Shown here in pieces: positions 1 through 40,447 of a DNA stretch of 40,447 bases. Made by a program: the position numbers and the translations under genes. The stretch lies in the IMG/VR virus record IMGVR_UViG_3300050505_000427; one strand, given 5' to 3'. This stretch comes from a virus. Below the pieces are notes generated by a model. That model did not search any database. It was given only the letters and a program-made list of their open reading frames with translations, and was not told where the DNA came from. Each line of letters begins with the position of its first letter. The stretch's first letter is position 1.

Positions 1-127
1 CTGTCGCGGCCCATGTCGCGGCCCTTGTCGCGTCCCCTGTCGCGGCCCTTGTCGCGGCCTCTGTCGCGGATCTCATGGCGACGTTTATTTTATTTTTTTG
101 TTGCTCTTCTATAAGACAAGTGGCAAG
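1..127. repeat. Terminal direct repeat, exact copy of 40321..40447 (circular-assembly overlap or terminal redundancy)
   Basis: Bases 1-127 are identical letter for letter to the last 127 bases of the window. Confidence 0.97.
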
Positions 128-349
128 AACGCCGGCCATAATAGCCACAAAAGGACTTTGTACGTGTATAATAGTTTTTGGAACGGGTAAATTGGCGGCA
201 GCATATAAACCATCCATAGCTTCCTTAAACTTCACTTTATCATCTTCCGTCATGGCATCCGTATTAAGTATAATCTTAGTCCATTTATCGGCCCATGGCT
301 TTAGTTGGGCTTCATGCTCTGGGGTTAATTCGTATAGTTTTTTCTTCAT
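1..349 (-). CDS. 5' part (N-terminal ~116 aa) of a junction-spanning gene; continues into 39422..40447 (415 aa in total once circularised)
   Basis: The ATG at 349-347 overlaps the stop of the upstream gene (ATGA). The frame stays open down to base 1. The codon phase at base 1 equals the phase at 40321 of ORF 39422..40396. N-terminus: MKKKLYELTPEHEAQLKPWADKWTKIIL... Confidence 0.8.
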   Translation of the reverse strand, partial: MKKKLYELTPEHEAQLKPWADKWTKIILNTDAMTEDDKVKFKEAMDGLYAAANLPVPKTIIHVQSPFVAIMAGVLATCLIEEQQKNKINVAMRSATEAATRAATGDATRAATWAAT

Positions 350-846
350 AATTCCTCCTCCCATTTTCCGGGAGTGCCGTTGATGTAGGCTTGACTTTCG
401 ATGAAAAACTCCGGATGACCAGCTGATAATTCTATGATTAAATCTTCGGGTAAACTTAACCCAGAATAATTGAGCTTCCAAAAAAGTTTTCGATCTTCAA
501 TAAATTGCCGGGGATCACTGTCCACTATATTCCACAATATTCCCCGTTCGGCGCAAAGCACGCGAGGGCCAAAAAATCGGGTAGTAAGGGTCTCTCCGTG
601 GAGGATGCAAAAGTTATCCCATCTGGCCATGGCATTATCTTGTTTCCTGCGGAGGGATGCGGGAGAAAGCTTTCCGCGTTTTGTTGGGCGAGATTCAGGA
701 GGAAGCTTGAGAAAGGCATCAAAAGCCATGTTGATGGCAGCACTGAAACTACAGTCGTTTTCTTTACAGAAGCGATTAATAATTTCGATTCGCTCTGGTG
801 AAAGGCTAACTGACTTGATTTGCTTGAGTTTTTTATCTTTTTCCAT
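346..846 (-). CDS. Hypothetical protein with a possible N-terminal ribbon-helix-helix DNA-binding fold
   Basis: 166-aa ORF. The N-terminus KSVSLSPERIEIINRFCKENDCSFSAAINMAFDAFLK fits a strand-helix-helix pattern. Its stop overlaps the next start (ATGA). Confidence 0.7.
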   Translation of the reverse strand: MEKDKKLKQIKSVSLSPERIEIINRFCKENDCSFSAAINMAFDAFLKLPPESRPTKRGKLSPASLRRKQDNAMARWDNFCILHGETLTTRFFGPRVLCAERGILWNIVDSDPRQFIEDRKLFWKLNYSGLSLPEDLIIELSAGHPEFFIESQAYINGTPGKWEEEL

Positions 847-2870: not shown

Positions 2871-3179
2871 ATGGCAAAGAGGCATTTCTTTCTCTTCCGA
2901 ATCCCTAGCGACCAAGAACAACAATCCTACGGTCTACCCCGCCTATGGTGGCCGTTTCCTGCGGAAACGATAGTGGAGCTTATCGAGAATGATCTTCTTT
3001 ACTACGTAAACTCGCCGACCTATGACCGAGCGCTCTCCAAGAACTCCATAGACACAATCCGTGAGGCTCGCGCTTCACGTCTCTGCAAGTGCTCTGCCAA
3101 ACTCATGACCCGTGCAATGCTTCTAGACGAAAAACCTCACGATAGCTTTTGTCCCCTCACTACCCTAAAGGTTCTCTGA
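2871..3179 (+). CDS. Hypothetical protein
   Basis: An internal ATG 2 nt after the upstream stop was chosen over 2835. TGATG overlap with the next gene. Confidence 0.65.
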   Translation: MAKRHFFLFRIPSDQEQQSYGLPRLWWPFPAETIVELIENDLLYYVNSPTYDRALSKNSIDTIREARASRLCKCSAKLMTRAMLLDEKPHDSFCPLTTLKVL

Positions 3180-3640
3180 TGGAAAAGTTTGTCCACCCCG
3201 AAGGCCCCTCTCCGGCCCTTATCATGCTCATAGGAGAAGCCCCCGGTCGCCTAGAGGCCTCCCTCGGCCGTCCTTTTATAGGCTCATCCGGGCAACTTCT
3301 CCGCCGCGCCCTTTCAGACGCAGGCTTTTCCGATAATGAATGTCTCTTCGCAAATACCATAAACTTCCGCCCGGCCAACAACCGAACCCCCACTCCCGAT
3401 GAAATAGCCCTCTACCAAGACGAGCTAATAGCACACTTCTTACTGGCGCAGCCGCGGATTCTCATTTGCCTAGGGCGCACCGCCAGAGAGGCAATACAAA
3501 AATGGCCGCTTCACTTCCTAAAGATGCCTAAAATAGTCTCCTTCTTTTACCACCCTGCCTACGTCCTCCGCAGGCGCCGCCGAGAGCTAGCCGCCTGGCG
3601 AGCGAGCTTTGCCCGTCTCGCGCAAGAACTCGCCTCATAA
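3179..3640 (+). CDS. Uracil-DNA glycosylase, family 4 (phage-type)
   Basis: GEAPGRLEASLGRPFIGSSGQLL (motif A) and YHPAYVLRR (motif B-like). Start taken at MEKFVHPEG. Confidence 0.85.
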   Translation: MEKFVHPEGPSPALIMLIGEAPGRLEASLGRPFIGSSGQLLRRALSDAGFSDNECLFANTINFRPANNRTPTPDEIALYQDELIAHFLLAQPRILICLGRTAREAIQKWPLHFLKMPKIVSFFYHPAYVLRRRRRELAAWRASFARLAQELAS

Positions 3641-13228: not shown

Positions 13229-14632
13229 ATGCCTCGTTATAGCAAAAAAGAAGCTCGCGAACTTAGCTGGTATCGAGGCGATCTGCGCTACAAACTCAAA
13301 CCCCATCAGCGCCTTATAGAAGAAGCCTTTCGACAATCTAAGAGTTTGCTTTTTTACGGAGATTGCTCTCGTCGCACAGGCAAGACTTTTTGGGCCGCCC
13401 TTAAGTGCGTAGAGTGGGCCCTCACGTGCCAGAACCCCCTGCCTCGCATCTTTTATGCCAGCAGTACCAAAACCGGCCTCAAAAAATTTGCCATCCCAGC
13501 TTTCGAGATGATTCTTGCCGATTGCCCCGAAGAACTCAAACCCCGCTGGAAAGTAAGTGAGCTTACCTATACCTTTCCCCATAACGGAGCTGAAATCCAG
13601 CTTATTGGCCTAGACGTTAATCCTGAGGCTGGCCGCGGTAACAACGCAGACCTCTATGTTTTTGAGGAAGCCGGTTTCATAGACAAGTTAGACTATCTAT
13701 ACAGTAGCGTTGTGACCCCGATGACAGCGACTCGTCCCGGCGCACGGGTTATTATGATTTCCACGCCACCGTCCACTCCCGCACATCCTCTTACGACAAC
13801 CTTCCTGCCAAAAGCTCTCGCAGAGGGTAGTTATATTCTCTTGACAATCGACGATAACACTATGCTCTCTCCAGCGCAAAAAAAGGTTCTTCTCGAAGAG
13901 TGTCTTACTGAAACCGAGCGCCTGCGCGAATACTATTGCCGCCATGTCACAGACGAGAGCCTCAGTCTTTGCCCAGAGTGGTCCCCCGAGCATGAAGTCG
14001 AGCTATCTCGCCCTGCCTACTTTAAGCAATTGCATCGTTACGTAGCCATGGACCTGGGAACGAAAGTAGACCTCACGGCCATTGGTTTCGGCTGGTACGA
14101 CCGCCTCACAAGAGTCTTCTATCTAGAGCAAGAAGACTCTATTAACGGGCCAGCTATGACCACCATCGCACTGCGGGATATGGTTAGAAAGCACGAGAAA
14201 GCCATTTGGGAAGGGCTAGAACCCTATCGCCGTGTCGCAGACAATGATAATCCCCTACTGTTGCAAGATTTAGGTAGCCTCCATGGGCTCCATTTTGTTC
14301 CCACGGGGAAAGATGAGCTAAAGGCCATGGTAGATCAGGTCCGAGTAATGGTAAAAGAAGGCCGCATTAAGGTAAATCCCAAAACCTGCCCCAAAACCAT
14401 AGGCTGCCTTCGCTATGGCGTTTGGGATAAGCATCGCAAACGCTTCGGGCGCTCCGCCGCCTATGGCCATTTCGATCACTTTGCTATGCTTATGTATCTA
14501 ATTAGAAACATTGACCTCTATGGCGGCGATCCCATCGCAGAGCCGGGAAGAACTAAGCAGGCAGCTAAGGACCGGAAAGAGCTTGAGATTGCTTTAGAAG
14601 ACATGAGTGGGATCTTTGAGGGAACAGAATAA
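13229..14632 (+). CDS. terL: Terminase large subunit
   Basis: Walker A-like GDCSRRTGKT and Walker B-like DLYVFEEAGF. 467 aa, directly upstream of the portal gene. Confidence 0.85.
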   Translation: MPRYSKKEARELSWYRGDLRYKLKPHQRLIEEAFRQSKSLLFYGDCSRRTGKTFWAALKCVEWALTCQNPLPRIFYASSTKTGLKKFAIPAFEMILADCPEELKPRWKVSELTYTFPHNGAEIQLIGLDVNPEAGRGNNADLYVFEEAGFIDKLDYLYSSVVTPMTATRPGARVIMISTPPSTPAHPLTTTFLPKALAEGSYILLTIDDNTMLSPAQKKVLLEECLTETERLREYYCRHVTDESLSLCPEWSPEHEVELSRPAYFKQLHRYVAMDLGTKVDLTAIGFGWYDRLTRVFYLEQEDSINGPAMTTIALRDMVRKHEKAIWEGLEPYRRVADNDNPLLLQDLGSLHGLHFVPTGKDELKAMVDQVRVMVKEGRIKVNPKTCPKTIGCLRYGVWDKHRKRFGRSAAYGHFDHFAMLMYLIRNIDLYGGDPIAEPGRTKQAAKDRKELEIALEDMSGIFEGTE

Positions 14633-14664: not shown

Positions 14665-16569
14665 TTGTCAGACAAGTATTTTGCATCATTGCCGGCCTAC
14701 GATCTTATTGACGAGTTAGTTCTGCGTAAGGAGCGATATTATCGCTACCTGCATGAAACGGGGCGCACAGAGCTGCTACGCAAGGTCTATAATTTCACTA
14801 ATAAAAGTGCCTTCAAACGCGGTAGCCTCTCCCGAAGCGGTAACCTGGGCCAGTATGTTAACATAAACGTAAACCACTTTAGAAATCTCATAGACCATCG
14901 CAAGAGCCTTCTCGTAAACCAACGCCCCGCCTATGACCCAAAGGCCATTAACACAGACTATAAGTCCATGGCGCAAACCACCATCGCTAGCGGCCTTTTA
15001 GACTACTATAGCCGCGTGGAAAAGTTAGAACGTTACCAGGCCGAGACTGCGGACCTGGCGATCCGCTATGGAGAAGGGTTTTTATACGGGGGATGGAACC
15101 CAAGCGGCGGCAAGGAATACGGTCGACATCCTGAGACTGGTGCTATTATCTATGAAGGAGACCTTGAGTTTGGATCCTATAGCACTTTCGATGTCATAAG
15201 AGATATTCACTACCGCAAAGCTAATTGTGACGAGTGGATCTTGCTTCGCAAGAGAGCTAATAAGTTTGAGATCGCCAGCCAGGCGGGTCTCTCCGAAGAG
15301 ACAAAAGAAGAAGTAATTCAAGAGAGCTATAGCGAGTTCCAGGGATTTTTAACCGATTTCGTTATTCGTCGCTTCTACGACAGCCCTACAAATGAACTCA
15401 TAAATAAATGGTGCTTTTATCATAAGCCTACCCCGGCCATGCCACAGGGAAGAATATTGGAGTTCACGGAAGGAGGCATTCTCTTATTTGACGGCCCGCT
15501 TCCTTACCGCAGCCTTCCCGTGATCCGCATGAGCGCGGGAGAGATGGAAGACTACATTTACGGCTATAGCAATACCTTTGATCTCGTCCCTCTCCAAGAA
15601 GCCATAGACAAGCTCTATAGCGTAGCGCTAACCAATAACGCTACCTTTGGCGTCCAAAATATTGCCATGCCCCGCGGAGCCGGTCTCACAGTAAGCCGTC
15701 TTGCCGGCGGTCTTAACCTTGTAGAGTTCGATCCCAAAGCCGGCAAGCCTGAGCCTCTTCAGTTAACTGCTACGCCAGTAGAACTCTATAACCTGATTGC
15801 AGTTTTAGAGCAAAAAATGGAAACCCTCTCGGGGATTAATAGTGCAGCCCGGGGCGAACCTGAGAGCAATCTCCGCAGCGCAAACAGCGTGGCGCTTGTC
15901 CAGACAATGGCCATTCAATTTGCTCAGGCCCTTCAGCTTAGCTACGTCCAGATGCTAGAGGACAGCGCTACCATGGTCATCCAAAATCTTCAAGACTATG
16001 CCAGCACCCCACGCGTCGCGCTCATTAGCGGAAAAAACAACAGCACCTATCTACAAACATTTAAAGGCGAAGACCTGGCAGACATCCATAGAGTAGTCGT
16101 TGACATGGGCAATCCAGTTATGAAGACCCTTGCCGGTCGCACCGACGCGGCCAATAGCCTCTTACAGTATAACCAAGTTAACGCCATGCAATATCTAGAG
16201 GTCTATAAAACTGGTAACTTGGAAGTGATGACGGAGGGTCCGCACGCACAAATGATGGGAATTCGTAAGGAAAATGAGATGCTTATGGCGGGTAAGAAAC
16301 CCCGCGCTCTCTCAATTGATAATCATGAATTGCACATTTTAGAGCATAGCACCGTTACTAGCGACCCGGAAATTCGGGAGAATGTTGCGATTCTTAGCCC
16401 AACATTGGAGCATATTGCCGAGCACCAGGCCCTTTTAGCGCAGCAACAACCGCCTATGCAAATGTCCCCGGAACAGAATAAACAAAAGCCTTCTCAAAGT
16501 GAAGGAAATCCCGCTATGTCTAGTGGTCCTGGAGCAATCCAACCGCCTAGCACAGCTCCCAAGGAGTAA
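14665..16569 (+). CDS. Portal protein
   Basis: 634 aa directly after terL. TTG start 6 nt after GGGAG. Q/P-rich C-terminal tail. Confidence 0.75.
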   Translation: MSDKYFASLPAYDLIDELVLRKERYYRYLHETGRTELLRKVYNFTNKSAFKRGSLSRSGNLGQYVNINVNHFRNLIDHRKSLLVNQRPAYDPKAINTDYKSMAQTTIASGLLDYYSRVEKLERYQAETADLAIRYGEGFLYGGWNPSGGKEYGRHPETGAIIYEGDLEFGSYSTFDVIRDIHYRKANCDEWILLRKRANKFEIASQAGLSEETKEEVIQESYSEFQGFLTDFVIRRFYDSPTNELINKWCFYHKPTPAMPQGRILEFTEGGILLFDGPLPYRSLPVIRMSAGEMEDYIYGYSNTFDLVPLQEAIDKLYSVALTNNATFGVQNIAMPRGAGLTVSRLAGGLNLVEFDPKAGKPEPLQLTATPVELYNLIAVLEQKMETLSGINSAARGEPESNLRSANSVALVQTMAIQFAQALQLSYVQMLEDSATMVIQNLQDYASTPRVALISGKNNSTYLQTFKGEDLADIHRVVVDMGNPVMKTLAGRTDAANSLLQYNQVNAMQYLEVYKTGNLEVMTEGPHAQMMGIRKENEMLMAGKKPRALSIDNHELHILEHSTVTSDPEIRENVAILSPTLEHIAEHQALLAQQQPPMQMSPEQNKQKPSQSEGNPAMSSGPGAIQPPSTAPKE

Positions 16570-16909: not shown

Positions 16910-19147
16910 GTGGCAACCAATGTTTTTAAGCAGATTAATCTAGACCTGCTAACCCCAACTACCGTTGGCGATGACCTCGGCAATCACACTGCTACGCAAG
17001 ACTTCCATCTAGACGGCAACGCGGTACGGACAGACGAAGCTGATGGCGCTAGCGCAATCGGGTTCCAATTCCAGACTGATAATGCCCTCGTGACAGACGG
17101 TAGCATCTTGCTACAGCTTAATAACATGAGTGATCTTTTTCTACAGGCTCGCCGTGGCAGCAGCGACGCGACCTCTTATTGGAGCGCCGATGACAACATA
17201 ATTGAGCTTGCTAGTAAAACCGGGACTATTCAGGGCTTTATTATCCCAACCGATGACCAGGGATTAATAATCGGGAACATCGCAGATCTCAATCTCACGT
17301 TTGCTAATGCAAGCGCGGATCAAAGTTACTATGGCGCCTTTACCTCTCAGCCTTTTGTATCCCAGCTAGATATTACCGCTAATAAAAGTGGCGTATCCGC
17401 GGGAATGCACGTCGATGTAAGTGGAACCTACGGACAGGTCAGTCTCACCGGAGATCAGCTCCAAGTAGGATTCAATATCGTAACACTGCAACCAACGGGC
17501 ACGACTGCTGATAAAGATCGCCTTCAGGATTTAGTGTCTGCCGTGCACTCTTCTGGTGGCGGTATCATTCAACTCTCGCAAGGTCTTTATGATTTAGACG
17601 ATGGGGTTGTTTTTAGCAGCATCAATAACGTAACGATTCGCGGCGCAGGACGCGCCACACGCCTTACCGCTACCGGCGGTGGAACCGGGGCTATGATCGA
17701 GTTTGCCGGTACTAGCGACCTTGTCGACCAGCCTTTAAATAATTTTAGTCGCGGCGCGACCAGCGTGTTTACCACGACAGCAGCTGCAGCGGGACAAGTA
17801 GGCACCGGCGATACTCTTTTTATTGTAGGTACCGATAGTGTGACAGGGTATAAAGAAGGCTTTACGGCTCGTGCATCGGCTAATGGTAATGGGGGGACGG
17901 GCGAGATCACTTTGGTAAACCCCGCTCCGATGGGCTTTACCGGAGGATTGCTAGATAATCCTAGTGCAAACAAATTTAATCGCTTAGAGAATTTACAGCT
18001 AGAGCCCGCAGGCACCTACGAACAAATTATCTTAGCGCGCTACAGCGATCATCTAGAGATTAGGGATCTCAATATTGAAGGCGAAGACGTGGCTCTCACA
18101 GGGACCGCTACTGATGGCATTAGCATGGTAGCTACTTTTGACACTCTCATAGAACGCGTTACCATTTCGAATCTAGACGGCTGTCGTGCGATAGCTTGCC
18201 GAGCGGCGATGACTCCTATTGTTCGTGGATGCAAGATCTATTCTAACAACAATAGCAGCACAGGCACGACCCCACAGGCCGCGATTCTCTTAGGTGTCAA
18301 TGCATATGGAGGTCTTGTAGAAGGAAACTTTATCCAAGGCGGCAAAGGAGATGGTGCAATCGTACTGGATGCCGGCGCGCACAATGTAACGCGCACTAGG
18401 GTTAGAGACAATGAAATTCTCTATCGCCCCACCGGACAGGGCATTCAAGTTAACGGCGGCTACCAAAATAGCGTTGAAGGCAACGACATTCGCAGTTGTA
18501 TCAGCGGGTCAAGCGGCTTCGGAATCTTGGCGAACATGAAAGATGGTTCTGCCTGCGATAACACAATTGTGGATTGCTCATGGGGAATTGTCAGCAATAT
18601 CTCGGGTGGAAATAACGTCCGCATCAATGATAATACATTAGAGCGTATTGACCAGCAAGGAATTTATTTGAACAATGGAGCGGATAGCGCAATCTGTGGA
18701 AACGATATCCGAACAGTAAACAACAGCGATGCTATCGGTATCGATAATAGCCAACGGGTAAGTTGTGTTGGTAACACCGTTAACTTTGCTCCACGCGGCA
18801 TTCGCGTTTATGATGATAGCGATGACGTGACCGTAAACGGTAACACGGTATTTGATACCACAAGCGGCATATGGGTTGATGGTAGCGCGACGGTCCCGAC
18901 TAACGTTGTAATCGTGGGTAACCTCGTGAGAACGGCTACCACCGGCATTCGCCTGAGCGCCTGTCAGGACTGCGCTGTGACTAGCAATCGCGTAGACAAC
19001 GCCACTACTGGCATTAAACTGGAAGACAATACCGGAGTTTGCGATAACAACCTTGTCGACCATAATAATATTCGTAGTAACATTACGCCTCTATCCGATA
19101 CCTCTACCGGCGTGAATAATCAGAAGCTTAGCAACCTAGTTGCCTAG
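16910..19147 (+). CDS. Tailspike/depolymerase with a right-handed parallel beta-helix (pectate-lyase fold)
   Basis: GGGIIQLSQGLYDLDDGVVFSSINNVTIRGAG is followed by many GN-I/V-containing repeats (NTIVDCSWGIVSN, GNDIRT, GNTVN, GNLVR, SNRVDN). GTG start after GGAG. Confidence 0.8.
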   Translation: MATNVFKQINLDLLTPTTVGDDLGNHTATQDFHLDGNAVRTDEADGASAIGFQFQTDNALVTDGSILLQLNNMSDLFLQARRGSSDATSYWSADDNIIELASKTGTIQGFIIPTDDQGLIIGNIADLNLTFANASADQSYYGAFTSQPFVSQLDITANKSGVSAGMHVDVSGTYGQVSLTGDQLQVGFNIVTLQPTGTTADKDRLQDLVSAVHSSGGGIIQLSQGLYDLDDGVVFSSINNVTIRGAGRATRLTATGGGTGAMIEFAGTSDLVDQPLNNFSRGATSVFTTTAAAAGQVGTGDTLFIVGTDSVTGYKEGFTARASANGNGGTGEITLVNPAPMGFTGGLLDNPSANKFNRLENLQLEPAGTYEQIILARYSDHLEIRDLNIEGEDVALTGTATDGISMVATFDTLIERVTISNLDGCRAIACRAAMTPIVRGCKIYSNNNSSTGTTPQAAILLGVNAYGGLVEGNFIQGGKGDGAIVLDAGAHNVTRTRVRDNEILYRPTGQGIQVNGGYQNSVEGNDIRSCISGSSGFGILANMKDGSACDNTIVDCSWGIVSNISGGNNVRINDNTLERIDQQGIYLNNGADSAICGNDIRTVNNSDAIGIDNSQRVSCVGNTVNFAPRGIRVYDDSDDVTVNGNTVFDTTSGIWVDGSATVPTNVVIVGNLVRTATTGIRLSACQDCAVTSNRVDNATTGIKLEDNTGVCDNNLVDHNNIRSNITPLSDTSTGVNNQKLSNLVA

Positions 19148-20493: not shown

Positions 20494-21068
20494 TGAGCAC
20501 ACAGGCCCAGCCAGTTTACTTAGTCAGTCCCAATGCAACAGAGCCAAAAACGAGGCTTGGGTTATATTTTTACCAAGCTGGCAATTTCACAGTCCAAGCG
20601 AGCGCCCACGGGGCAACTGCGGGTTTTTTCTGGCTCATTAATCCCGTTGGTTCTGCGGTACAGGTGAGAATAAAGCACATCGATTGTGTTAGCCAACTTA
20701 CTTCGGCCCTTGTAGCGACAAGTGCGCCAAGAATTACTGTTGAAAGAGTGACCTTTACAGGCACAGCTAGTGGGGCAAGCGTTACGCCGGCGAAACAGTT
20801 CTCAACAGATGCTGCTAATGTCAGCTCTCTACGGACTGCCTCAACGGGGCTATCCTTAAGTGCCGGCGCGGCCGCATTTGCTTTCCTCCCTATTGCCAGT
20901 GCAACAGCGGTTGGCTATAATCCCGCGACTTTTATTAGTATGGATAATGCCGCAACAGATGCTCTTGTCCTTACTGCCGGCGAAGGAATCGTCATGCGGC
21001 AACCAGATGCAGGCACTGCTAGCGATACGAGAAAGCTTACCTTTAATATTATAGTGGAAGAGCTGTAA
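20493..21068 (+). CDS. Hypothetical virion-module protein
   Basis: 191-aa ORF with a TAATG overlap with the fibre gene. Confidence 0.65.
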   Translation: MSTQAQPVYLVSPNATEPKTRLGLYFYQAGNFTVQASAHGATAGFFWLINPVGSAVQVRIKHIDCVSQLTSALVATSAPRITVERVTFTGTASGASVTPAKQFSTDAANVSSLRTASTGLSLSAGAAAFAFLPIASATAVGYNPATFISMDNAATDALVLTAGEGIVMRQPDAGTASDTRKLTFNIIVEEL

Positions 21069-21070
21069 AG

Positions 21071-21217
21071 ATGGCTAAGATTATCCTACTCAAGCCAAAT
21101 GCAAAGAAGATTCGCCGCTACGGCTGGAAAGATCGCCTGCGTCGCAACAGCAAGCCAATAGGCTTGCTTCGAAGACTTTGGCGGTTCCTCACCGGAAAAC
21201 GACTTAACTTGCGCTAG
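21071..21217 (+). CDS. Possible very basic 48-aa protein
   Basis: MAKIILLKPNAKKIRRYGWKDRLRRNSKPIGLLRRLWRFLTGKRLNLR, with 17 of 48 residues Lys or Arg. Confidence 0.35.
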   Translation: MAKIILLKPNAKKIRRYGWKDRLRRNSKPIGLLRRLWRFLTGKRLNLR

Positions 21218-21387
21218 TCCTTTTCATCTCGTACGCAAAAAAGTTCTTCCGCCTCGCTATGCTGCTTCTCTTTCCGTAACGCAATCAGTAGCAGTTCTTG
21301 TTGCGTCTTCATTAGAATCTCTTTTTCACGGTCAGTTAGTGCAGCTTTTGCCGGTGCGGTTTTGCGGAGTGTCTTGAGACTATCCAT
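21214..21387 (-). CDS. Cassette ORF j (57 aa), hypothetical
   Basis: MDSLKTLRKTAPAKAALTDREKEIL... GGAG upstream. It shares a palindromic CTAG stop with the convergent plus-strand ORF. Confidence 0.45.
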   Translation of the reverse strand: MDSLKTLRKTAPAKAALTDREKEILMKTQQELLLIALRKEKQHSEAEELFCVRDEKD

Positions 21388-21598
21388 CTAGTGCTCCGTA
21401 TAGTTCTTCAAAGACCAGATAGGTGCTAGTAAGATGCTTGAGCAAGAGACCTTTACTCTCACACTTCGCAAGGAAGTCTAGGATGAAAGCGTCAAAGTCC
21501 TCGGGATCTGTCGCTAGACACCATTCATCGAGTTCCGCTCCGCGTACCGCCACTTGGATCTGATTGCGAAGCAAGTCTTTAATGTTTTGTAGGGTCAT
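21380..21598 (-). CDS. Cassette ORF i (72 aa), hypothetical
   Basis: GGGAGGA Shine-Dalgarno sequence upstream of the ATG. Confidence 0.65.
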   Translation of the reverse strand: MTLQNIKDLLRNQIQVAVRGAELDEWCLATDPEDFDAFILDFLAKCESKGLLLKHLTSTYLVFEELYGALDG

Positions 21599-21812
21599 TT
21601 TTATCCTCCCGCTTGTTTACTAAATTAAAGGCTTCGATGAGAGTCGAAGCTGCAGTTTGCATTTGAGCCTCTGAAAATCCCGCATTCCATGCTGTCTCAA
21701 CCATCAGTTGAGAAGCAACCATCCCGCATTCTTTTATAGAAAGACCGTGAGACGCGAGAAGCTTATGGATCTCGTCTACGACAGTTAAGATCATTTCAGG
21801 ATTGCGTTTCAT
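21579..21812 (-). CDS. Cassette ORF h (77 aa), hypothetical helical protein
   Basis: ORF overlapping both neighbours. Confidence 0.6.
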   Translation of the reverse strand: MKRNPEMILTVVDEIHKLLASHGLSIKECGMVASQLMVETAWNAGFSEAQMQTAASTLIEAFNLVNKREDKNDPTKH

Positions 21813-22005
21813 TTTCTTTTACCCTGTCTAGGCAATCTAGATACATATCATCTAATACCATTCTTAGTTTTTCTGGCGTTTTGAATACACGCGCCATTAA
21901 TTCTATGAGCATAGCCGACAAAATTATTCCTTGATCGCCTTCAGTCAAAAAATACTTATCGAATACCTTTTCGATACCTTTCATTGCTAGTTCCACATTT
22001 TTCAT
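21796..22005 (-). CDS. Cassette ORF g (69 aa), hypothetical helical protein
   Basis: AGGAGG Shine-Dalgarno sequence upstream. Confidence 0.65.
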   Translation of the reverse strand: MKNVELAMKGIEKVFDKYFLTEGDQGIILSAMLIELMARVFKTPEKLRMVLDDMYLDCLDRVKENETQS

Positions 22006-22013
22006 TTTTCCTC

Positions 22014-22187
22014 CTAGTGTAGGTCTATATCTTCGTCTAGTCCTTTTTTATGCATCCACTCGTCTATAAACTCGGCGCGGTTATGGATTACCCGCGGGCG
22101 CAGCCAGCGCCTCTTAACTCGCTTATAGACATCTGCTGCCCCGAAGAGGGCAAAGATGACCATTAGAATGAAGCCAACGATTTCCAT
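22014..22187 (-). CDS. Cassette ORF f (57 aa), N-terminal single-pass membrane protein
   Basis: MEIVGFILMVIFALFGAADVYKRVKRRW... Starts directly after the upstream stop. Confidence 0.45.
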   Translation of the reverse strand: MEIVGFILMVIFALFGAADVYKRVKRRWLRPRVIHNRAEFIDEWMHKKGLDEDIDLH

Positions 22188-22406
22188 TTAAAAGGGCACC
22201 TTATTACCGTCTTCATATTCCGCCGCGCATTCGCACTCATAGCAAGTAATTGGATTGCGATCCGTGGGAACAAACTCAAGACCACACTCGCGACACTTCG
22301 CAACAGTTAATTGCTTTTGGAAGCCGTCGAGACGATTATTTAAAGCCTGCAGGCCGTCGATTAGGTCATCGAGAATACGTAGTAAAATCTTAGTGTTGGT
22401 ATCCAT
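22188..22406 (-). CDS. Cassette ORF e (72 aa), zinc-ribbon protein
   Basis: CRECG...CYECEC. AAGGA Shine-Dalgarno sequence upstream. Confidence 0.65.
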   Translation of the reverse strand: MDTNTKILLRILDDLIDGLQALNNRLDGFQKQLTVAKCRECGLEFVPTDRNPITCYECECAAEYEDGNKVPF

Positions 22407-22419
22407 CTTATTTTCCTTT

Positions 22420-22581
22420 CTATAAGTCTAGCAGGTTTGCTTGCCAGTTGTCTAGAATTTCTTGCGTTCTTCGTTCAATAGCAATGGTCTCGCTAATAAT
22501 GCCATATGTTTCAATGAATTCAGCTAGCTGCATATCCTGGATCTCCGTGCAGGCTTGCTCGAATGCGCGTTCCCAAGTCAT
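22420..22581 (-). CDS. Cassette ORF d (53 aa), hypothetical
   Basis: MTWERAFEQACTEIQDMQLAEF... GGGAG upstream. ATGA overlap with ORF c. Confidence 0.5.
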   Translation of the reverse strand: MTWERAFEQACTEIQDMQLAEFIETYGIISETIAIERRTQEILDNWQANLLDL

Positions 22582-22688
22582 AAATCACTCCCGCTGAAAA
22601 GGAAGATCAATACTAGGATAGTAAAGAAGACACCCAGAAATGGAACGAGGAGCTTGTAGATAGCAAATATGGCGAGCCAGGTAAGCAT
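22578..22688 (-). CDS. Cassette ORF c (36 aa), hydrophobic single-pass peptide
   Basis: MLTWLAIFAIYKLLVPFLGVFFTILVLIFLFSGSDL. AGGAG Shine-Dalgarno sequence upstream. TAATG overlap with ORF b. Confidence 0.45.
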   Translation of the reverse strand: MLTWLAIFAIYKLLVPFLGVFFTILVLIFLFSGSDL

Positions 22689-22798
22689 TATTTTGTCTCC
22701 TGCTTCACGTAGTAGAGAAACCATCCGATGACCGCGAGGACGGGAACAGTCGCGAGTTTGAATGCGAAGGCCACAAAAGAGATTGCGATGGTAATCAT
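22688..22798 (-). CDS. Cassette ORF b (36 aa), hydrophobic single-pass peptide
   Basis: MITIAISFVAFAFKLATVPVLAVIGWFLYYVKQETK. Starts 1 nt after the stop of ORF a. Confidence 0.4.
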   Translation of the reverse strand: MITIAISFVAFAFKLATVPVLAVIGWFLYYVKQETK

Positions 22799-37980: not shown

Positions 37981-38532
37981 TTATTTCTTCTCCAACAAAA
38001 CTCTATCATCCGTTCCGACGCCCGTTAGGACGTAGCAGACTACAAACATGAAGTTACAGAGGGCGTGGGCCTCATGAGAGAGGCCGCTTTCGGGGTCAGT
38101 GGTTTCGCCATTTGCTATGGCGAGCAAATGGCGGCGCCAAGAGTTAAGCACTCTAGAGAAGGCCATGCCGTTAGTATAATTTAGGCTAGCATACTTTTTT
38201 GCACCGAAAGAAAGAACCGGAGAAATAATTGAAGCAATTAGTTTAGCAGAAGTTTGCCAAACTTGTTGTAATGAACTAACATCATCATAATAAAACCATT
38301 GATTAAGCGCATTATCCGCGCCGTCAAGCAATTGACGCGGATTAATGATTCCTTGTCTCCAAACCTCCGGGTGAATATGGTGCAGCTCGGGCTTGCCGGT
38401 GTCGTAGCGGAGAGCTTCAATGGTATGGGCATGGCTTCCTAACGGAGGAATTTGTTGAGTATGACAGCCGCTGTCCTCACATTCTTCTATGTAATATCCT
38501 TTGTCTCCCGTATTTCCATACCATACACACAT
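37981..38532 (-). CDS. MazZ-like dATP/dGTP diphosphohydrolase-domain protein
   Basis: YDTGKPELHHIHP...FGAKKYASLNY...RRHLLAIANGETTDPESGLSHEAHALCNFMFVV matches the remembered family pattern D.GK...Ga.KY...RH...GE..D.ESGL.H..HA.CN. Confidence 0.65.
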   Translation of the reverse strand: MCVWYGNTGDKGYYIEECEDSGCHTQQIPPLGSHAHTIEALRYDTGKPELHHIHPEVWRQGIINPRQLLDGADNALNQWFYYDDVSSLQQVWQTSAKLIASIISPVLSFGAKKYASLNYTNGMAFSRVLNSWRRHLLAIANGETTDPESGLSHEAHALCNFMFVVCYVLTGVGTDDRVLLEKK

Positions 38533-38777: not shown

Positions 38778-39070
38778 AAATTCTCCTCTATCCAGTCGGC
38801 TATTTGTGAGAACGACTGGCTGTTATCATAATATAACCCCGTTCCATCATTTTGGCAAATTAATTTTTGTTGCTCTTTGTTGGAAATTTTACAAGTTTTA
38901 AGCATAGAAGACGTTAACTCTGTATCTCGGGGATAAATGGTTTGCCTAGTAATCTCACAAAGAACTCCTAAGCAACAGTAGTAATGATTCTCAAGAAGTT
39001 GCCCCTGGCCCTGCTTAAAATCCCCGCTCCGTAGTGCGTCTACCCACATCTGTTTTATTTCTGGGTGCAT
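38774..39070 (-). CDS. Conserved phage hypothetical protein
   Basis: 98 aa. The pattern WVDALRSGDFKQGQGQL...YCCLGVLCE is recognisable from other phage proteins of unknown function. Confidence 0.65.
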   Translation of the reverse strand: MHPEIKQMWVDALRSGDFKQGQGQLLENHYYCCLGVLCEITRQTIYPRDTELTSSMLKTCKISNKEQQKLICQNDGTGLYYDNSQSFSQIADWIEENL

Positions 39071-39408
39071 TAGTCAAGCACTGTTCGGCTACGGCGAGTC
39101 AGCAGATCGCGTTCACGTTGTGGGTTAATCTCGTAGACTCCCGGGGGGATAATGGCGACTTCGTGGCCACTATGGGCTTCGGTGCCATGAACAAGCTGCG
39201 TTGTCTCTGTTACGCGAAGTAAGTTGCCCGCTGCGAGGGCGTTGCCGAATAACTCAAACTTTCCGCCCATGATTGTATGAGGATTCCCGGTTTCGCCGGT
39301 TGCGACTATGCCGGTTAGGTTTGCCGAGGCCTCTGGCCGGCGGTCTTCGGCCAATTCACGAATGATGACTTCTCCTTGAACGATTACTTTTAGTTTCTTT
39401 GGTCTCAT
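39070..39408 (-). CDS. Conserved small beta-barrel (cupin-like) phage protein
   Basis: Start taken at MRPKKLKVIVQGEV after AAGGAG. GETGNPHTI...LVHGTEAHSGHEVAIIPPGVYEINPQRE. Confidence 0.65.
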   Translation of the reverse strand: MRPKKLKVIVQGEVIIRELAEDRRPEASANLTGIVATGETGNPHTIMGGKFELFGNALAAGNLLRVTETTQLVHGTEAHSGHEVAIIPPGVYEINPQRERDLLTRRSRTVLD

Positions 39409-39421
39409 TGGTTTCTCCTTT

Positions 39422-40447
39422 TTAGCTTTCGCTAATGATTTCATATTTACTAGTGTCTATTCCCATGGTTGCGAGGCGCACTAGCTCTGCGTTATCGCAG
39501 TCTGTTGGCACAAGGCCGAACACGTTTTGAAACTCTTCGGGCGTACGTGGTACACCTAAAAATGTTTCCTGTTCTTGGAGAGTATCATGCCAGGTGACTT
39601 TTAGCAAGCGAATATTTTCATTGTCGTTAGGTAGACGCACTTCCCAAAGCTCGATTGGCTTTGTGCTGCCGCGCGTCGAAGGTGCGCTTGATATAAATTT
39701 GCCATTTAGCGCGCGCACTAGATCATCAAAGCCGCCGCGCATGTTACGAAGTACGGCCATGCGAACATCATTATTTGGCTCTGCTAGCAATTCTTTAGCA
39801 TTTATGGGTTTTTCAATATATTTAGCAGGTACGAAAGTACCATTGAGTGCGTAAAGGGCACTGCCATCGCGCCATTTTTTAAAGGGACCCGTGGTACAGT
39901 GGGGTCTATTTTGAGCGTTCATTTTGATATACTCTGGACGGTCAGATACTATAACAAAGTCTCGATGCATAAAACGAGCACCCCCATATATTTCTGCATT
40001 TTTATAATGACGCCATTTCTCATAAATTGGAAGGTTTAGACCCACTATATCATCGAAAAAAGAATAAAAAGAGGTCGACTGAGACCATTCATTTCCAAGA
40101 TGTAAGAAATCCCATACAGAAGAAAACTTTTGTAATACATTTTTAAAATTTTTACCTTCGAAAGATTCAAAAATATGTTTAAGATCCTCATTATTTAAAA
40201 AACCAGTATAAAAGGTATTTAAGTCTGTCGCGGCCCTTGTCGCGTCCCCTGTCGCGTCCCCTGTCGCGGCCCCTGTCGCGGCCCATGTCGCGTCCCTTGT
40301 CGCGGCCTCTGTCGCGGCCTCTGTCGCGGCCCATGTCGCGGCCCTTGTCGCGTCCCCTGTCGCGGCCCTTGTCGCGGCCTCTGTCGCGGATCTCATGGCG
40401 ACGTTTATTTTATTTTTTTGTTGCTCTTCTATAAGACAAGTGGCAAG
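39422..40447 (-). CDS. 3' part of the junction-spanning gene: tetrapeptide-repeat segment plus a C-terminal domain resembling DUF6745
   Basis: The ORF has no stop between 40396 and the window end. It contains the repeat ATEAATRAATGDATRAATWAAT... The C-terminal motif FVIVSDRP...RPHCTTGPFKKWRDGSALYALNGTFVP matches my memory of the DUF6745 family. Confidence 0.85.
   Translation of the reverse strand, partial: LATCLIEEQQKNKINVAMRSATEAATRAATGDATRAATWAATEAATEAATRDATWAATGAATGDATGDATRAATDLNTFYTGFLNNEDLKHIFESFEGKNFKNVLQKFSSVWDFLHLGNEWSQSTSFYSFFDDIVGLNLPIYEKWRHYKNAEIYGGARFMHRDFVIVSDRPEYIKMNAQNRPHCTTGPFKKWRDGSALYALNGTFVPAKYIEKPINAKELLAEPNNDVRMAVLRNMRGGFDDLVRALNGKFISSAPSTRGSTKPIELWEVRLPNDNENIRLLKVTWHDTLQEQETFLGVPRTPEEFQNVFGLVPTDCDNAELVRLATMGIDTSKYEIISES
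40226..40393. repeat. 12-bp tandem array, 13 units plus 1 degenerate unit, consensus TGTCGCG[G/T]CC[C/T][T/C/A]
   Basis: Units counted directly from the sequence. Units 9-14 are also present at 2..73 because of the terminal duplication. Confidence 0.95.
40321..40447. repeat. Terminal direct repeat, exact copy of 1..127
   Basis: Identical to 1-127. It covers the last 6 units of the 12-bp array plus 54 bp of unique sequence. Confidence 0.97.

What the first reader, a model, noticed from the sequence alone, without database searches (positions are those of the whole stretch)
40226..40393. 12-bp tandem array in which every difference between units changes an amino acid
On the plus strand the unit is TGTCGCG[G/T]CC[C/T][T/C/A], present 13 times plus one degenerate unit. 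On the coding (minus) strand each unit reads NNG-G[C/A]C-GCG-ACA, which is X-(A/D)-A-T. X is R (AGG), G (GGG), W (TGG) or E (GAG). All four third-codon positions are invariant across the 13 units. The only variable nucleotides are first and second codon positions, so no difference is silent. This is the opposite of neutral drift. It implies recent homogenisation of units combined with either selection for diversity at one residue per repeat or a nucleotide-level constraint on TGTCGCG. There is an alternative reading. Fourteen phased direct repeats are followed directly by a T/A-rich tract at 40394-40440. That arrangement resembles iterons plus a DNA-unwinding element, as in lambda ori inside gene O. 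The array may therefore also be an origin or a protein-loading site. The in-frame 12-nt steps would additionally make it a slippage-prone length-variable locus.
Basis: partly seen in the sequence, partly recalled or inferred. Interest (0 to 1): 0.78.

Follow-up and report, generated by a model that had tools for sequence, protein, structure and literature searches.

The report
Hypervariable tetrapeptide-repeat module in phage protein
The 12-base repeats are real and encode a fast-changing four-amino-acid repeat inside an early phage protein, the kind of module one mycobacteriophage is known to use to tune its escape from a bacterial defence; they are not a replication origin.

Summary
The array (40226-40393, 14 units of 12 nt) is real. 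It is not at the start of a gene. The window is a circular assembly cut inside the array (1-127 = 40321-40447). The true ORF starts at 349 on the minus strand, crosses the junction and stops at 39422 (415 aa). It has an N-terminal sub-domain, 14 copies of X1-X2-Ala-Thr, and a C-terminal DUF6745 domain. The 'T/A-rich tract' is coding.

Every difference among the 13 regular units does change an amino acid, but in this array alone that is not significant (P about 0.13-0.25). It becomes robust across 73 homologous arrays. Variation sits at unit nt 1, 2 and 5, while silent sites are uniform within each array yet differ between arrays. TGTCGCG is therefore not a conserved DNA motif, and the iteron/origin reading is not supported.

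An otherwise near-identical genome carries 5 units instead of 14. Distant homologues carry other tetrapeptides (xxQL, xSSL) at the same site, with the same Arg / aromatic / acidic / small palette at X1.

The closest known case is mycobacteriophage Tweety gp54, a tunable counter-defence protein. It shares the repeat design but not the flanking domains. Function here is inferred. Verdict: a new variant of a known kind.

The parts
40226..40393 (-). Array of 14 x 12 nt encoding aa 93-148, [R/E/G/W]-[A/D/S]-Ala-Thr. Unit consensus on the coding strand: NNG-G[C/A]C-GCG-ACA.
1..127 (.). Exact terminal overlap with 40321-40447, of the kind left by a circular k=127 assembly. Positions 1-73 are the same DNA as the last 6.1 array units. 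The non-redundant genome is 40320 nt.
   Evidence: The sister contig L001 is 40212+141 nt.
128..349 (-). 5' part of the true ORF (aa 1-74). The ATG is at 349-347, preceded by GGAGGAGG, and overlaps the TGA of ORF 346-846 (ATGA).
   Evidence: The N-terminus MKKKLYELTPEHEAQLKPWADKW is conserved in all homologues. The identical 415-aa product was called on another contig (P0001).
39422..40447 (-). 3' part of the same ORF: aa 75-415 plus the stop at 39422-39424.
40394..40447 (-). The 'T/A-rich tract'. It codes for aa 75-92, LATCLIEEQQKNKINVAM: the end of the hydrophobic helix and the linker before the array. The ATG at 40396 is the internal Met92.
39425..40225 (-). C-terminal domain (aa 149-415), DUF6745 / PF20530.
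39070..39408 (-). Conserved partner gene: a 112-aa all-beta protein with an invariant His triad and an invariant C-terminal Asp. It is adjacent to the DUF6745 gene in all 14 DUF6745 loci (13 at E <= 1e-11, L086 only 1.4e-4) screened with an HMM and in 59 of 81 loci by blastp clustering.
346..846 (-). Upstream gene of the same leftward operon (166 aa, no family hit). It is translationally coupled to the repeat protein.

Best explanation
What it is. The array is the coding sequence of a hypervariable tetrapeptide-repeat module, [X1-X2-Ala-Thr]x14. It is inserted between the N-terminal sub-domain and the C-terminal DUF6745 domain of a 415-aa accessory protein. That protein is encoded in the leftward (early-type) operon of a ~40.3-kb podovirus-like phage.

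Shown:
- The ORF, the domain order and the family-wide presence of such arrays at this exact site.
- Uniform silent sites within each array but different ones between arrays. This is the signature of concerted evolution by unit duplication and deletion.
- Variation concentrated at codon 1 positions 1-2 and codon 2 position 2.
- A recurrent X1 palette of Arg + aromatic (Tyr/Trp) + acid (Asp/Glu) + small (Gly/Ser), whatever the codon context.
- Different arrays in genomes whose flanks are otherwise identical.

Inferred mechanism. Slipped-strand mispairing and unequal recombination between the 12-nt units keep changing unit number and order, always in frame. With so few units and such fast turnover, neutral (silent) variants drift quickly to loss or fixation. 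Protein-level selection keeps the units different at X1 and X2.

Inferred function. This rests on analogy with mycobacteriophage Tweety gp54, which has the same repeat design but non-homologous flanks. The array would be a mutationally tunable element. It would set the geometry or interaction surface of a protein engaged in phage-host or phage-phage conflict (counter-defence). It probably acts together with the adjacent small His-triad protein.
For: ORF and architecture.

Family-wide arrays: 76 of 82 sequences examined (81 fetched loci plus the window) have xxAT arrays of 4-72 units. All inspected homologous proteins have them.

Per-position variation: the mean minor-allele fraction per unit position is .48 .39 .08 | .08 .27 .06 | 0 0 .02 | 0 0 .03. 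Thirteen different Ala-Thr hexamers are used between arrays. In 57 of 74 arrays no two unit types differ silently.

Palette: in NNC arrays, Arg occurs in 44/49, Tyr in 42/49 and Asp in 40/49. In NNG arrays, Arg occurs in 12/12, Trp in 11/12 and Glu in 8/12.

Distant homologues with other constant parts follow the same rule. prophiGD102-1 gp38 has 46 x NGG-G[A/G]C-CAG-CTC. MW202476 has 28 x NNG-AGC-AGC-CTC, with exactly the window's four X1 codons.

Rapid change: window versus L001 shows 4 SNPs in 21 kb but 14 versus 5 units. L002/L011 and L005/L006 have 100% identical 750-nt flanks but different arrays. P0016/P0019/P0042 and P0034/P0039 are further cases.

Neighbouring X1 residues: opposite charges are enriched (z = +4.9) and identical residues depleted (z = -3.7).

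The known analogue: Tweety gene 54 has 49 x NNG-NNC-GCC-GCA, varying only at nt 1, 2, 4 and 5. Pham et al. 2007 described the same third-position invariance and copy-number differences of 48/26/15 (PMC2884959). gp54 is a tunable counter-defence whose escape mutants gain or lose repeats (PMC9262239; PMC8549241).

Conserved partner gene.
Against: - No experiment bears on any DUF6745 protein, and no paper mentions the family.
- The flanking domains are not homologous to gp54. gp54 has no Pfam hit, and hhalign gives probability 48% over 23 columns. The functional analogy therefore rests on the repeat design and on the gene's accessory, early position only.
- There are no PADLOC hits and no fold match in the PDB for either protein.
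- The structure of the repeat is unresolved. AF2 draws two helices there, but at pLDDT 35-48.
- Arrays come from short-read assemblies that often break in them. Individual copy numbers, and the 5-unit allele in particular, could be assembly-dependent.
- The shuffle test on neighbouring residues ignores block duplications.
Confidence: 0.72

Rival explanations
1. Iterons plus a DNA-unwinding element: the array is a phage replication origin or protein-loading site embedded in a gene, as in lambda ori inside gene O.
For: There are 14 phased direct repeats next to an A/T-rich stretch. The GC skew changes sign in the 38-40 kb / 0-2 kb region. One homologue lies three genes downstream of a RepA-like initiator gene (prophiGD102-1).
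Against: - The DNA motif is not conserved. Homologous arrays use 13 different Ala-Thr hexamers, and distant ones use CAGCTC or AGCCTC instead.
- The same phage carries 5 or 14 copies, and the family range is 4-72.
- The spacing is 12 bp, not a helical-phase spacing.
- The A/T-rich tract is coding.
- The array lies at the cumulative-skew maximum. The minimum is at about 22-26 kb.
- The pattern of variation tracks codon positions, which a DNA-binding site would not do.
Confidence: 0.03
2. Targeted hypermutation: a dedicated mutagenic mechanism (DGR-like retrohoming or a site-specific mutator), rather than selection, generates the changes at X1/X2.
For: Variation confined to codon positions 1-2 with a fixed third base resembles the AAC/AAY design of DGR variable regions. 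Arrays differ between genomes with identical flanks, including A/D swaps between adjacent units (L005/L006).
Against: - No reverse transcriptase is found in the window among the ORFs screened. Half the genome has precomputed Pfam hits, ten large ORFs of the other half were scanned, and neighbouring small ORFs were scanned.
- There is no template copy of the array anywhere else.
- The adenines of the ACA/ACN Thr codon never vary, which contradicts adenine-specific mutagenesis.
- The X1 palette is strongly non-random and equivalent in NNC and NNG contexts. This points to selection on the protein.
- Recombination between misaligned units can explain the A/D swaps.
Confidence: 0.05
3. A passive low-complexity spacer: a disordered or helical linker of arbitrary length and no specific role, whose pattern comes only from purifying selection plus codon bias.
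For: The site tolerates anything from a non-repetitive ~70-aa linker (Ma-LMM01 ORF174) to 72 units. Decayed arrays exist. AF2 confidence is low there. Pham et al. noted that such repeats are common in unstructured proteins.
Against: - If X1/X2 were merely unconstrained, four-fold silent sites (nt 9, 12) should vary as much as nt 1, 2 and 5. They vary 10-25 times less.
- Codon bias cannot explain this, because all Ala and Thr codons are used across arrays.
- The Arg / aromatic / acid palette recurs in nearly every array.
- Identical neighbours are depleted, although tandem duplication should create them.
- In Tweety, changes in repeat number have a strong phenotype.
Confidence: 0.12
4. Assembly artefact: the array, or its copy number, is produced by the assembler at the contig ends.
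For: The contig is cut inside the array, where the chance expectation is 0.7%. The 168-nt array exceeds k=127. 34 of 75 related viral contigs, and three other contigs of this same phage, end in the array.
Against: - 58 nt of unique sequence beyond the array also overlap at the two ends.
- An independent assembly (L097) gives the same last 11 units in the same order.
- The identical 415-aa product is on another contig (P0001).
- Arrays of 29-49 units occur in isolate genomes and cultured phages: Novosphingobium mangrovi HK4-1, prophiGD102-1 and Tweety.
- So the array is real. Only the exact unit number of long alleles, and the authenticity of the 5-unit allele, remain open.
Confidence: 0.05

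Closest known systems
Mycobacteriophage Tweety gp54 and its Cluster F homologues Che8 gp57 and PMC gp51: the 'tetrapeptide repeat protein' (Pham et al. 2007, PMC2884959). Function from Dedrick et al. 2017 Nat Microbiol, as summarised in PMC9262239 and PMC8549241.
   Same: - A 12-bp in-frame unit with two constant and two variable residues: NNG-NNC-GCC-GCA in Tweety, NNG-G[C/A]C-GCG-ACA here.
- Third codon positions invariant, with variation at first and second positions.
- Copy number differs between close relatives (48/26/15 there, 14/5 here).
- The array is central, between unique N- and C-terminal parts.
- The gene is accessory and sits in the early/right-arm region.
- Gly/Trp at X1 are encoded by GGG/TGG in both.
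   Different: - The flanking domains are unrelated. gp54 has a ~140-aa N-terminal part and a ~40-aa C-terminal part with no Pfam hit. Here there is a 92-aa N-terminal part and a 267-aa DUF6745 domain.
- Constant residues are Ala-Ala versus Ala-Thr.
- gp54 uses uncharged X residues (G/W/Q, S/Y). Here X residues include R/E/D.
- gp54 has no adjacent His-triad partner gene.
- The hosts are Actinobacteria versus (by relatives) Proteobacteria.
- Counter-defence activity has been shown only for gp54.
Bordetella phage BPP-1 / BMP-1 Bbp36 variable region 2 (VR2)
   Same: An in-frame tandem array inside a non-essential phage gene, with 9-20 copies depending on the isolate. Variation is confined to two adjacent residues per unit: GTATAG[YR/ES/EK].
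   Different: The unit is 24 bp (an octapeptide). The flanking domains are unrelated, and no DUF6745 partner is present. The variable dipeptide changes as a block that includes third positions. Function is unknown.
DUF6745 (PF20530) proteins without repeats, for example Microcystis phage Ma-LMM01 ORF174
   Same: Homologous N-terminal sub-domain and C-terminal domain (Foldseek E 4e-14; tblastn). The same small partner gene lies next to it (E 4e-27).
   Different: At the position of the array there is a non-repetitive ~70-aa linker.
Diversity-generating retroelement variable regions
   Same: Variability is limited to the first two positions of particular codons, and a phage accessory protein is diversified.
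   Different: There is no reverse transcriptase, no template repeat and no adenine specificity. Variation is spread over tandem units and accompanied by copy-number change.

Membership tests
DUF6745 (Pfam PF20530) protein family | Match to the family HMM above the gathering score | tested here: met
   28.9 bits against a cut-off of 27, E 8.5e-7, aa 233-351. 118 of the 120 listed homologues carry a precomputed PF20530.4 hit. There are 1977 cluster representatives at E <= 1e-3.
DUF6745 (Pfam PF20530) protein family | Shared N-terminal sub-domain and adjacent small His-triad partner gene (an empirical feature of the family found here, not part of the Pfam definition) | tested here: met
   The N-terminus is conserved. 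The partner is adjacent in 59 of 81 loci by blastp clustering and in all 14 DUF6745 loci (13 at E <= 1e-11, L086 only 1.4e-4) screened with the partner HMM, including LMM01 and prophiGD102-1.
Tweety gp54-type tetrapeptide repeat proteins | Central in-frame 12-bp tandem array encoding a tetrapeptide with two constant and two variable residues | tested here: met
Tweety gp54-type tetrapeptide repeat proteins | Third codon positions invariant within the array; variation at first and second positions | tested here: met
   Window. Family. Tweety.
Tweety gp54-type tetrapeptide repeat proteins | Repeat number differs between closely related phages | tested here: met
   14 versus 5 units with 4 SNPs in 21 kb, with the caveat that both are short-read assemblies.
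Tweety gp54-type tetrapeptide repeat proteins | Sequence homology of the flanking N- and C-terminal regions to gp54 (same phamily) | tested here: not met
   No DUF6745 or any other Pfam hit in gp54. hhalign probability 48% over 23 columns.
Tweety gp54-type tetrapeptide repeat proteins | Counter-defence activity that is retuned by gain or loss of repeats | not testable with these tools
   Known only from experiments on Tweety.
Iteron-type replication origin (lambda ori-like) | Repeat DNA sequence conserved among related replicons as a binding site | tested here: not met
   13 different hexamers for the constant part. Other constant parts in distant homologues.
Iteron-type replication origin (lambda ori-like) | Stable small number of repeats at helical-phase spacing, next to an A/T-rich unwinding element | tested here: not met
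   12-bp spacing. 5 versus 14 copies in one phage, and 4-72 across the family. The A/T-rich tract encodes aa 75-92.
Iteron-type replication origin (lambda ori-like) | Initiator binding and replication start at the site | not testable with these tools
   GC skew gives no support: the cumulative minimum is at 22-26 kb.
Diversity-generating retroelement target | Reverse transcriptase and a template repeat in the same element | tested here: not met
   No RT domain among the screened ORFs. No second copy of the array.
Diversity-generating retroelement target | Substitutions only at positions that are adenine in the template | tested here: not met
   The A residues at unit nt 10 and 12 (ACA) are invariant. 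In the family counts nt 10 could not vary, because only units that translate to x-x-Ala-Thr were counted.

The most novel reading that the evidence does not exclude
The DUF6745 protein and its small His-triad partner form a widespread two-gene conflict module: about 2000 DUF6745 C-domain cluster representatives, in phages and prophages with hosts from cyanobacteria to mycobacteria to proteobacteria. Its specificity would be retuned at high frequency by the number and the X1/X2 'code' of tetrapeptide units. The same design and the same Arg / aromatic / acid / small palette occur on a non-homologous scaffold (Tweety gp54). Short tetrapeptide arrays would then be a general, independently recruited evolvability device of phages. 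In concept this is a recombination-driven counterpart of DGRs.
Probability: 0.3. Interest if true: 0.8.

Novelty: new variant of a known kind. Interest (0 to 1): 0.55.

Why it matters
How Tweety gp54 works is, in the words of its discoverers, still obscure (PMC8549241), and it has been treated as a mycobacteriophage curiosity. The same repeat design turns out to sit at one fixed site of an unrelated, much larger family that always has a conserved partner gene. This offers three things:

1. Hundreds of natural alleles from which to read what is selected: a constant dipeptide, a palette of Arg / aromatic / acid, and avoidance of identical neighbours.
2. A testable candidate for tunable counter-defence in phages of Gram-negative hosts.
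3. A practical warning. These arrays break short-read assemblies in about half of the contigs, so the genes are systematically truncated and mis-started, as happened in this window.

Tried and rejected
- Fold search of the full-length AF2 model against the PDB: nothing (best E 2.3). Against BFVD: only another DUF6745 protein.
- Fold search of the partner protein against the PDB: nothing significant (best E 0.43). An HMM search of PDB sequences found nothing for the partner and only Ala-rich compositional hits for the repeat.
- PADLOC models: no hit for the repeat protein, the partner or the upstream gene.
- PHROGs: only unknown-function families, matched through the repeat.
- blastn of the region against 50,697 GenBank phages: no match. 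tblastn found only two distant homologues.
- Exact-flank searches in viral and metagenome collections, to find more alleles of this phage: no match. Exact look-up of P0001: not on record.
- Literature searches for DUF6745 and for repeat strings: nothing relevant. Dedrick et al. 2017 could not be opened, so secondary summaries were used.
- DGR idea rejected: no RT, no template repeat, invariant adenines.
- Transmembrane-anchor idea for the hydrophobic segment aa 66-84: AF2 places it as a confident helix of the N-terminal sub-domain, so I did not pursue it.
- A simple alpha-helix with i/i+4 salt bridges: the charge alternation fits. However, Gly at every fourth residue in many arrays and the uncharged Tweety repeats argue against it as a general explanation. 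Left open.
- tRNA and Rfam scans of the window: empty.
Full report
**1. The observation**

Window 40226-40393 contains 14 head-to-tail 12-nt units. TRF gives period 12, 13.8 copies and score 239. A two-unit pattern occurs 18 times against 0 expected, and nowhere outside the array and its terminal duplicate.

On the minus strand the units read RSAT, EAAT, RAAT, GDAT, RAAT, WAAT, EAAT, EAAT, RDAT, WAAT, GAAT, GDAT, GDAT, RAAT. The 13 regular units differ only at unit nt 1, 2 and 5.

The one exception is the degenerate unit, AGA-TCC-GCG-ACA. AGA and AGG both encode Arg, so this unit carries a silent difference from the Arg units.

**2. Gene structure and assembly**

The first 127 nt of the window are identical to the last 127 nt. 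The window is therefore a circular or terminally redundant assembly of 40320 nt that was cut inside the array. The overlap includes 58 nt of unique sequence beyond the array.

The minus-strand frame of the array stays open upstream of the ATG at 40396 and across the junction. It reaches an ATG at 349. That ATG follows a GGAGGAGG motif and overlaps the stop of the preceding gene (ATGA).

The resulting 415-aa protein is identical to a product called on another contig (P0001). Its N-terminus, MKKKLYELTPEHEAQLKPWADKW, is conserved in all homologues.

The array therefore encodes aa 93-148, in the middle of the protein. The 'T/A-rich tract' encodes aa 75-92 (LATCLIEEQQKNKINVAM). The C-terminal 267 aa match Pfam DUF6745 above threshold.

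The phage has PolA, a large terminase subunit, a P22-like portal and a beta-helix tailspike-like protein. No reverse transcriptase was found among the ORFs screened, and the window has no tRNA and no Rfam match. The repeat gene lies in a leftward operon of small accessory genes.

**3. Is 'every difference changes an amino acid' more than chance?**

For this array alone it is not. Three variable sites all avoiding third positions has P = 0.25. The five inferred point changes all being replacements has P = 0.13.

I therefore fetched relatives. There are 206 homologous proteins, 188 viral contigs of which 80 were kept as loci, and 10 genome loci. Of the 82 sequences examined (81 loci plus the window), 76 carry xxAT arrays of 4-72 units at the same site.

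Over 73 arrays, the mean minor-allele fraction per unit position is .48 .39 .08 | .08 .27 .06 | 0 0 .02 | 0 0 .03. Every array varies at nt 1, 71 vary at nt 2 and 62 at nt 5. Only 8 vary at nt 9 and 13 at nt 12, which are the four-fold silent sites (P 3e-14 and 8e-9). In 57 of 74 arrays no two unit types differ silently.

Between arrays, the same Ala-Thr is written with 13 different hexamers: GCCACC 15, GCCACG 14, GCGACC 10, and so on. The window's GCGACA appears only 3 times.

Three conclusions follow:
- The conserved entity is the peptide, not TGTCGCG.
- Within each array the units are recent copies of each other (concerted evolution).
- Diversity at X1/X2 is more than 10-fold higher than at neutral sites. 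This needs diversifying or balancing selection, or targeted mutation.

**4. The X1 palette**

X1 is not random.

| Arrays with X1 codon | Residues and number of arrays containing them |
|---|---|
| NNC (49 arrays) | Arg 44, Tyr 42, Asp 40 |
| NNG (12 arrays) | Arg 12, Trp 11, Glu 8, Gly 6 |

The same basic / aromatic / acidic (plus small) set is reached through different codons, which argues for selection on the protein.

Neighbouring X1 residues are enriched for opposite charge (z = +4.9). They are depleted for the same charge (z = -4.6) and for identity (z = -3.7), relative to within-array shuffles. Tandem duplication alone would do the opposite. The shuffle does ignore block duplications, so this result is supportive only.

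**5. Distant homologues**

Two GenBank phages carry DUF6745 proteins with different tetrapeptides at the same place:
- Mycobacterium abscessus prophage prophiGD102-1 gp38 has 46 units of NGG-G[A/G]C-CAG-CTC ([G/R/W][D/G]QL). It varies essentially only at nt 1 and nt 5.
- Siphoviridae sp. cta39025 has 28 units of NNG-AGC-AGC-CTC ([G/E/W/R]SSL). Its X1 codons are GGG, GAG, TGG and AGG, exactly the four found in the window.

Cluster representatives add xESV, xxSA[V/T] and xDAV arrays, and also decayed arrays in which the constant residues have drifted.

Microcystis phage Ma-LMM01 ORF174 is a DUF6745 protein with a non-repetitive ~70-aa linker at this site. The site is thus a hot spot where arrays arise, are homogenised and later decay.

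**6. Speed of change**

Contig L001 comes from another sample and a different assembler. Over 21 kb it differs from the window by 4 SNPs, and inside the gene by 1 SNP plus an in-frame 108-nt deletion. That leaves 5 units instead of 14.

L002/L011 and L005/L006 have 100% identical 750-nt flanks but different unit order and number, built from largely the same unit types. P0016/P0019/P0042 and P0034/P0039 are the same proteins with different arrays.

An independent contig of this phage (L097) reproduces the window's last 11 units in order, which supports the long allele.

There is a caveat. 34 of 75 viral loci, and three of four other contigs of this phage, end inside the array. Short-read assemblers evidently struggle with these arrays. 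The window's break in the array (chance 0.7%) is part of that pattern. Exact unit counts need long reads.

**7. Structure**

AF2 models the N-terminal sub-domain confidently (aa 10-84, pLDDT about 85-97). This includes the hydrophobic segment 66-84 as a helix. The C-terminal domain is also confident. The model has pTM 0.70.

The array is drawn as two helices (90-120 and 124-158), but at pLDDT 35-48, so this is not reliable. If the N- and C-terminal parts form one body, as the match to the repeat-less LMM01 protein hints, the array would have to loop out as a hairpin. This is inference only.

Gly at every fourth residue in many arrays argues against a plain helix. No PDB fold match exists.

**8. 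A conserved partner**

A ~112-aa gene lies directly next to the DUF6745 gene on the same strand in 59 of 81 loci. In the window it is 39070-39408 on the minus strand.

With an HMM, the partner is found next to the DUF6745 gene in all 14 DUF6745 loci screened. These include LMM01 (4e-27), cta39025 (4.5e-24, in an unannotated ORF) and prophiGD102-1 gp37 (5.8e-12). The weakest match is L086 (1.4e-4). It is not found next to Tweety gene 54 or bbp36.

The partner family has 1613 members and no Pfam model. AF2 gives an all-beta fold (pLDDT 84.5). It has invariant His44, His74 and His82 and an invariant C-terminal Asp. Neither a fold search nor an HMM search finds a match in the PDB. Its role is unknown. 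The strict linkage suggests the two proteins act together.

**9. Comparison with what is known**

Pham et al. [quoted passage not shown] They reported a 12-bp unit and invariant third codon positions, with variation at first and second positions. They called this 'consistent with selection for variation'. Copy number was 48, 26 and 15 in three related phages. They noted the resemblance to VR2 of Bordetella phage bbp36 (PMC2884959).

My own count on Tweety gene 54 gives 49 units of NNG-NNC-GCC-GCA, varying at nt 1, 2, 4 and 5 only. That is the window's design with Ala in place of Thr.

Functionally, gp54 is a counter-defence against the Phrann gp29/gp30 toxSAS system and against MichelleMyBell. 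Escape mutants have more or fewer repeats and 'tune' the specificity, and the mechanism 'remains obscure' (PMC9262239; PMC8549241; PMC7229694).

The flanking domains of gp54 are not homologous to the window protein. This is therefore not a member of the gp54 phamily. It is a different scaffold carrying the same kind of module. No paper in the searchable library mentions DUF6745 or these repeat strings.

**10. Rivals**

- The origin/iteron reading fails on motif conservation, copy-number stability, spacing, coding status of the A/T tract and GC skew.
- A DGR-like mechanism fails on the absence of RT and template repeat and on the invariant adenines.
- A passive spacer does not explain the excess diversity at X or the recurrent palette.
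- An outright assembly artefact is excluded by independent assemblies and by isolate genomes. Only exact copy numbers remain uncertain.

**11. Verdict**

The origin reading is wrong, and the gene model needed correcting.

The phenomenon itself has been known since 2007. One experimentally characterised example is a tunable counter-defence. What is new here:
- a second, much larger and unrelated protein family carrying such modules at a fixed site;
- an obligate partner gene;
- a convergent residue palette.

The function of this particular protein is inferred, not shown.

Noticed in passing
window 1-127 and 40321-40447: Exact 127-nt terminal overlap, consistent with a circular k=127 assembly. 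The sister contig L001 is 40212+141 nt (k141). The physical genome ends are therefore unknown, and the contig ends are artificial.
   Followed up: yes
L006, L011, L017, L020, L023 and others (34 of 75 viral loci); L097-L099: Contigs end inside the tetrapeptide array. These arrays systematically break short-read assemblies, so genes of this family are often truncated or given false internal starts, and long arrays are likely under-counted.
   Followed up: partly
window 39070-39408 (-): Small all-beta protein with invariant His44/His74/His82 and an invariant C-terminal Asp. The family has 1613 relatives and no Pfam model. It is strictly adjacent to DUF6745 genes from cyanophage to mycobacterial prophage. 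It has no PDB fold match; one JGI record labels a relative as cupin-like.
   Followed up: partly
L093 about 3140-3552 (+) (MW202476.1 about 47876-48288): An unannotated ORF in a GenBank phage record matches the partner-protein HMM (E 4.5e-24). It lies directly downstream of that record's DUF6745 gene.
   Followed up: partly
window 37981-38532 (-): 183-aa protein with a PF18909 domain (dATP/dGTP diphosphohydrolase N-terminal, E 1.5e-19) in the same leftward operon. The best PHROG is 'dATP/dGTP pyrophosphohydrolase'; other PHROG hits are oddly labelled 'endolysin; inhibits RNA polymerase'.
   Followed up: no
window 40237-40434 (+) and 40191-40334 (-): Spurious ORFs created by reading the repeat in other frames ((SRPL)n and (GRDR)n). 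The same happens in most related loci and produces false 'conserved' ORF clusters.
   Followed up: yes
P0009, P0110, P0270, P0282 (homologous proteins): Decayed or alternative arrays, in which the constant Ala-Thr has also been substituted, or xDAV units occur. This suggests a life cycle of birth, homogenisation and decay at this insertion site.
   Followed up: partly
window 16910-19147 (+): 745-aa protein with right-handed beta-helix / NosD domains, a likely tailspike. Together with the P22-like portal (14665-16569) and the large terminase subunit (13229-14632), this indicates a podovirus-like virion.
   Followed up: no
window 21068-22728: A ~1.7-kb stretch with no ORF of 80 aa or more and lower G+C (0.44). 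It has no tRNA and no Rfam hit. Not examined further.
   Followed up: no
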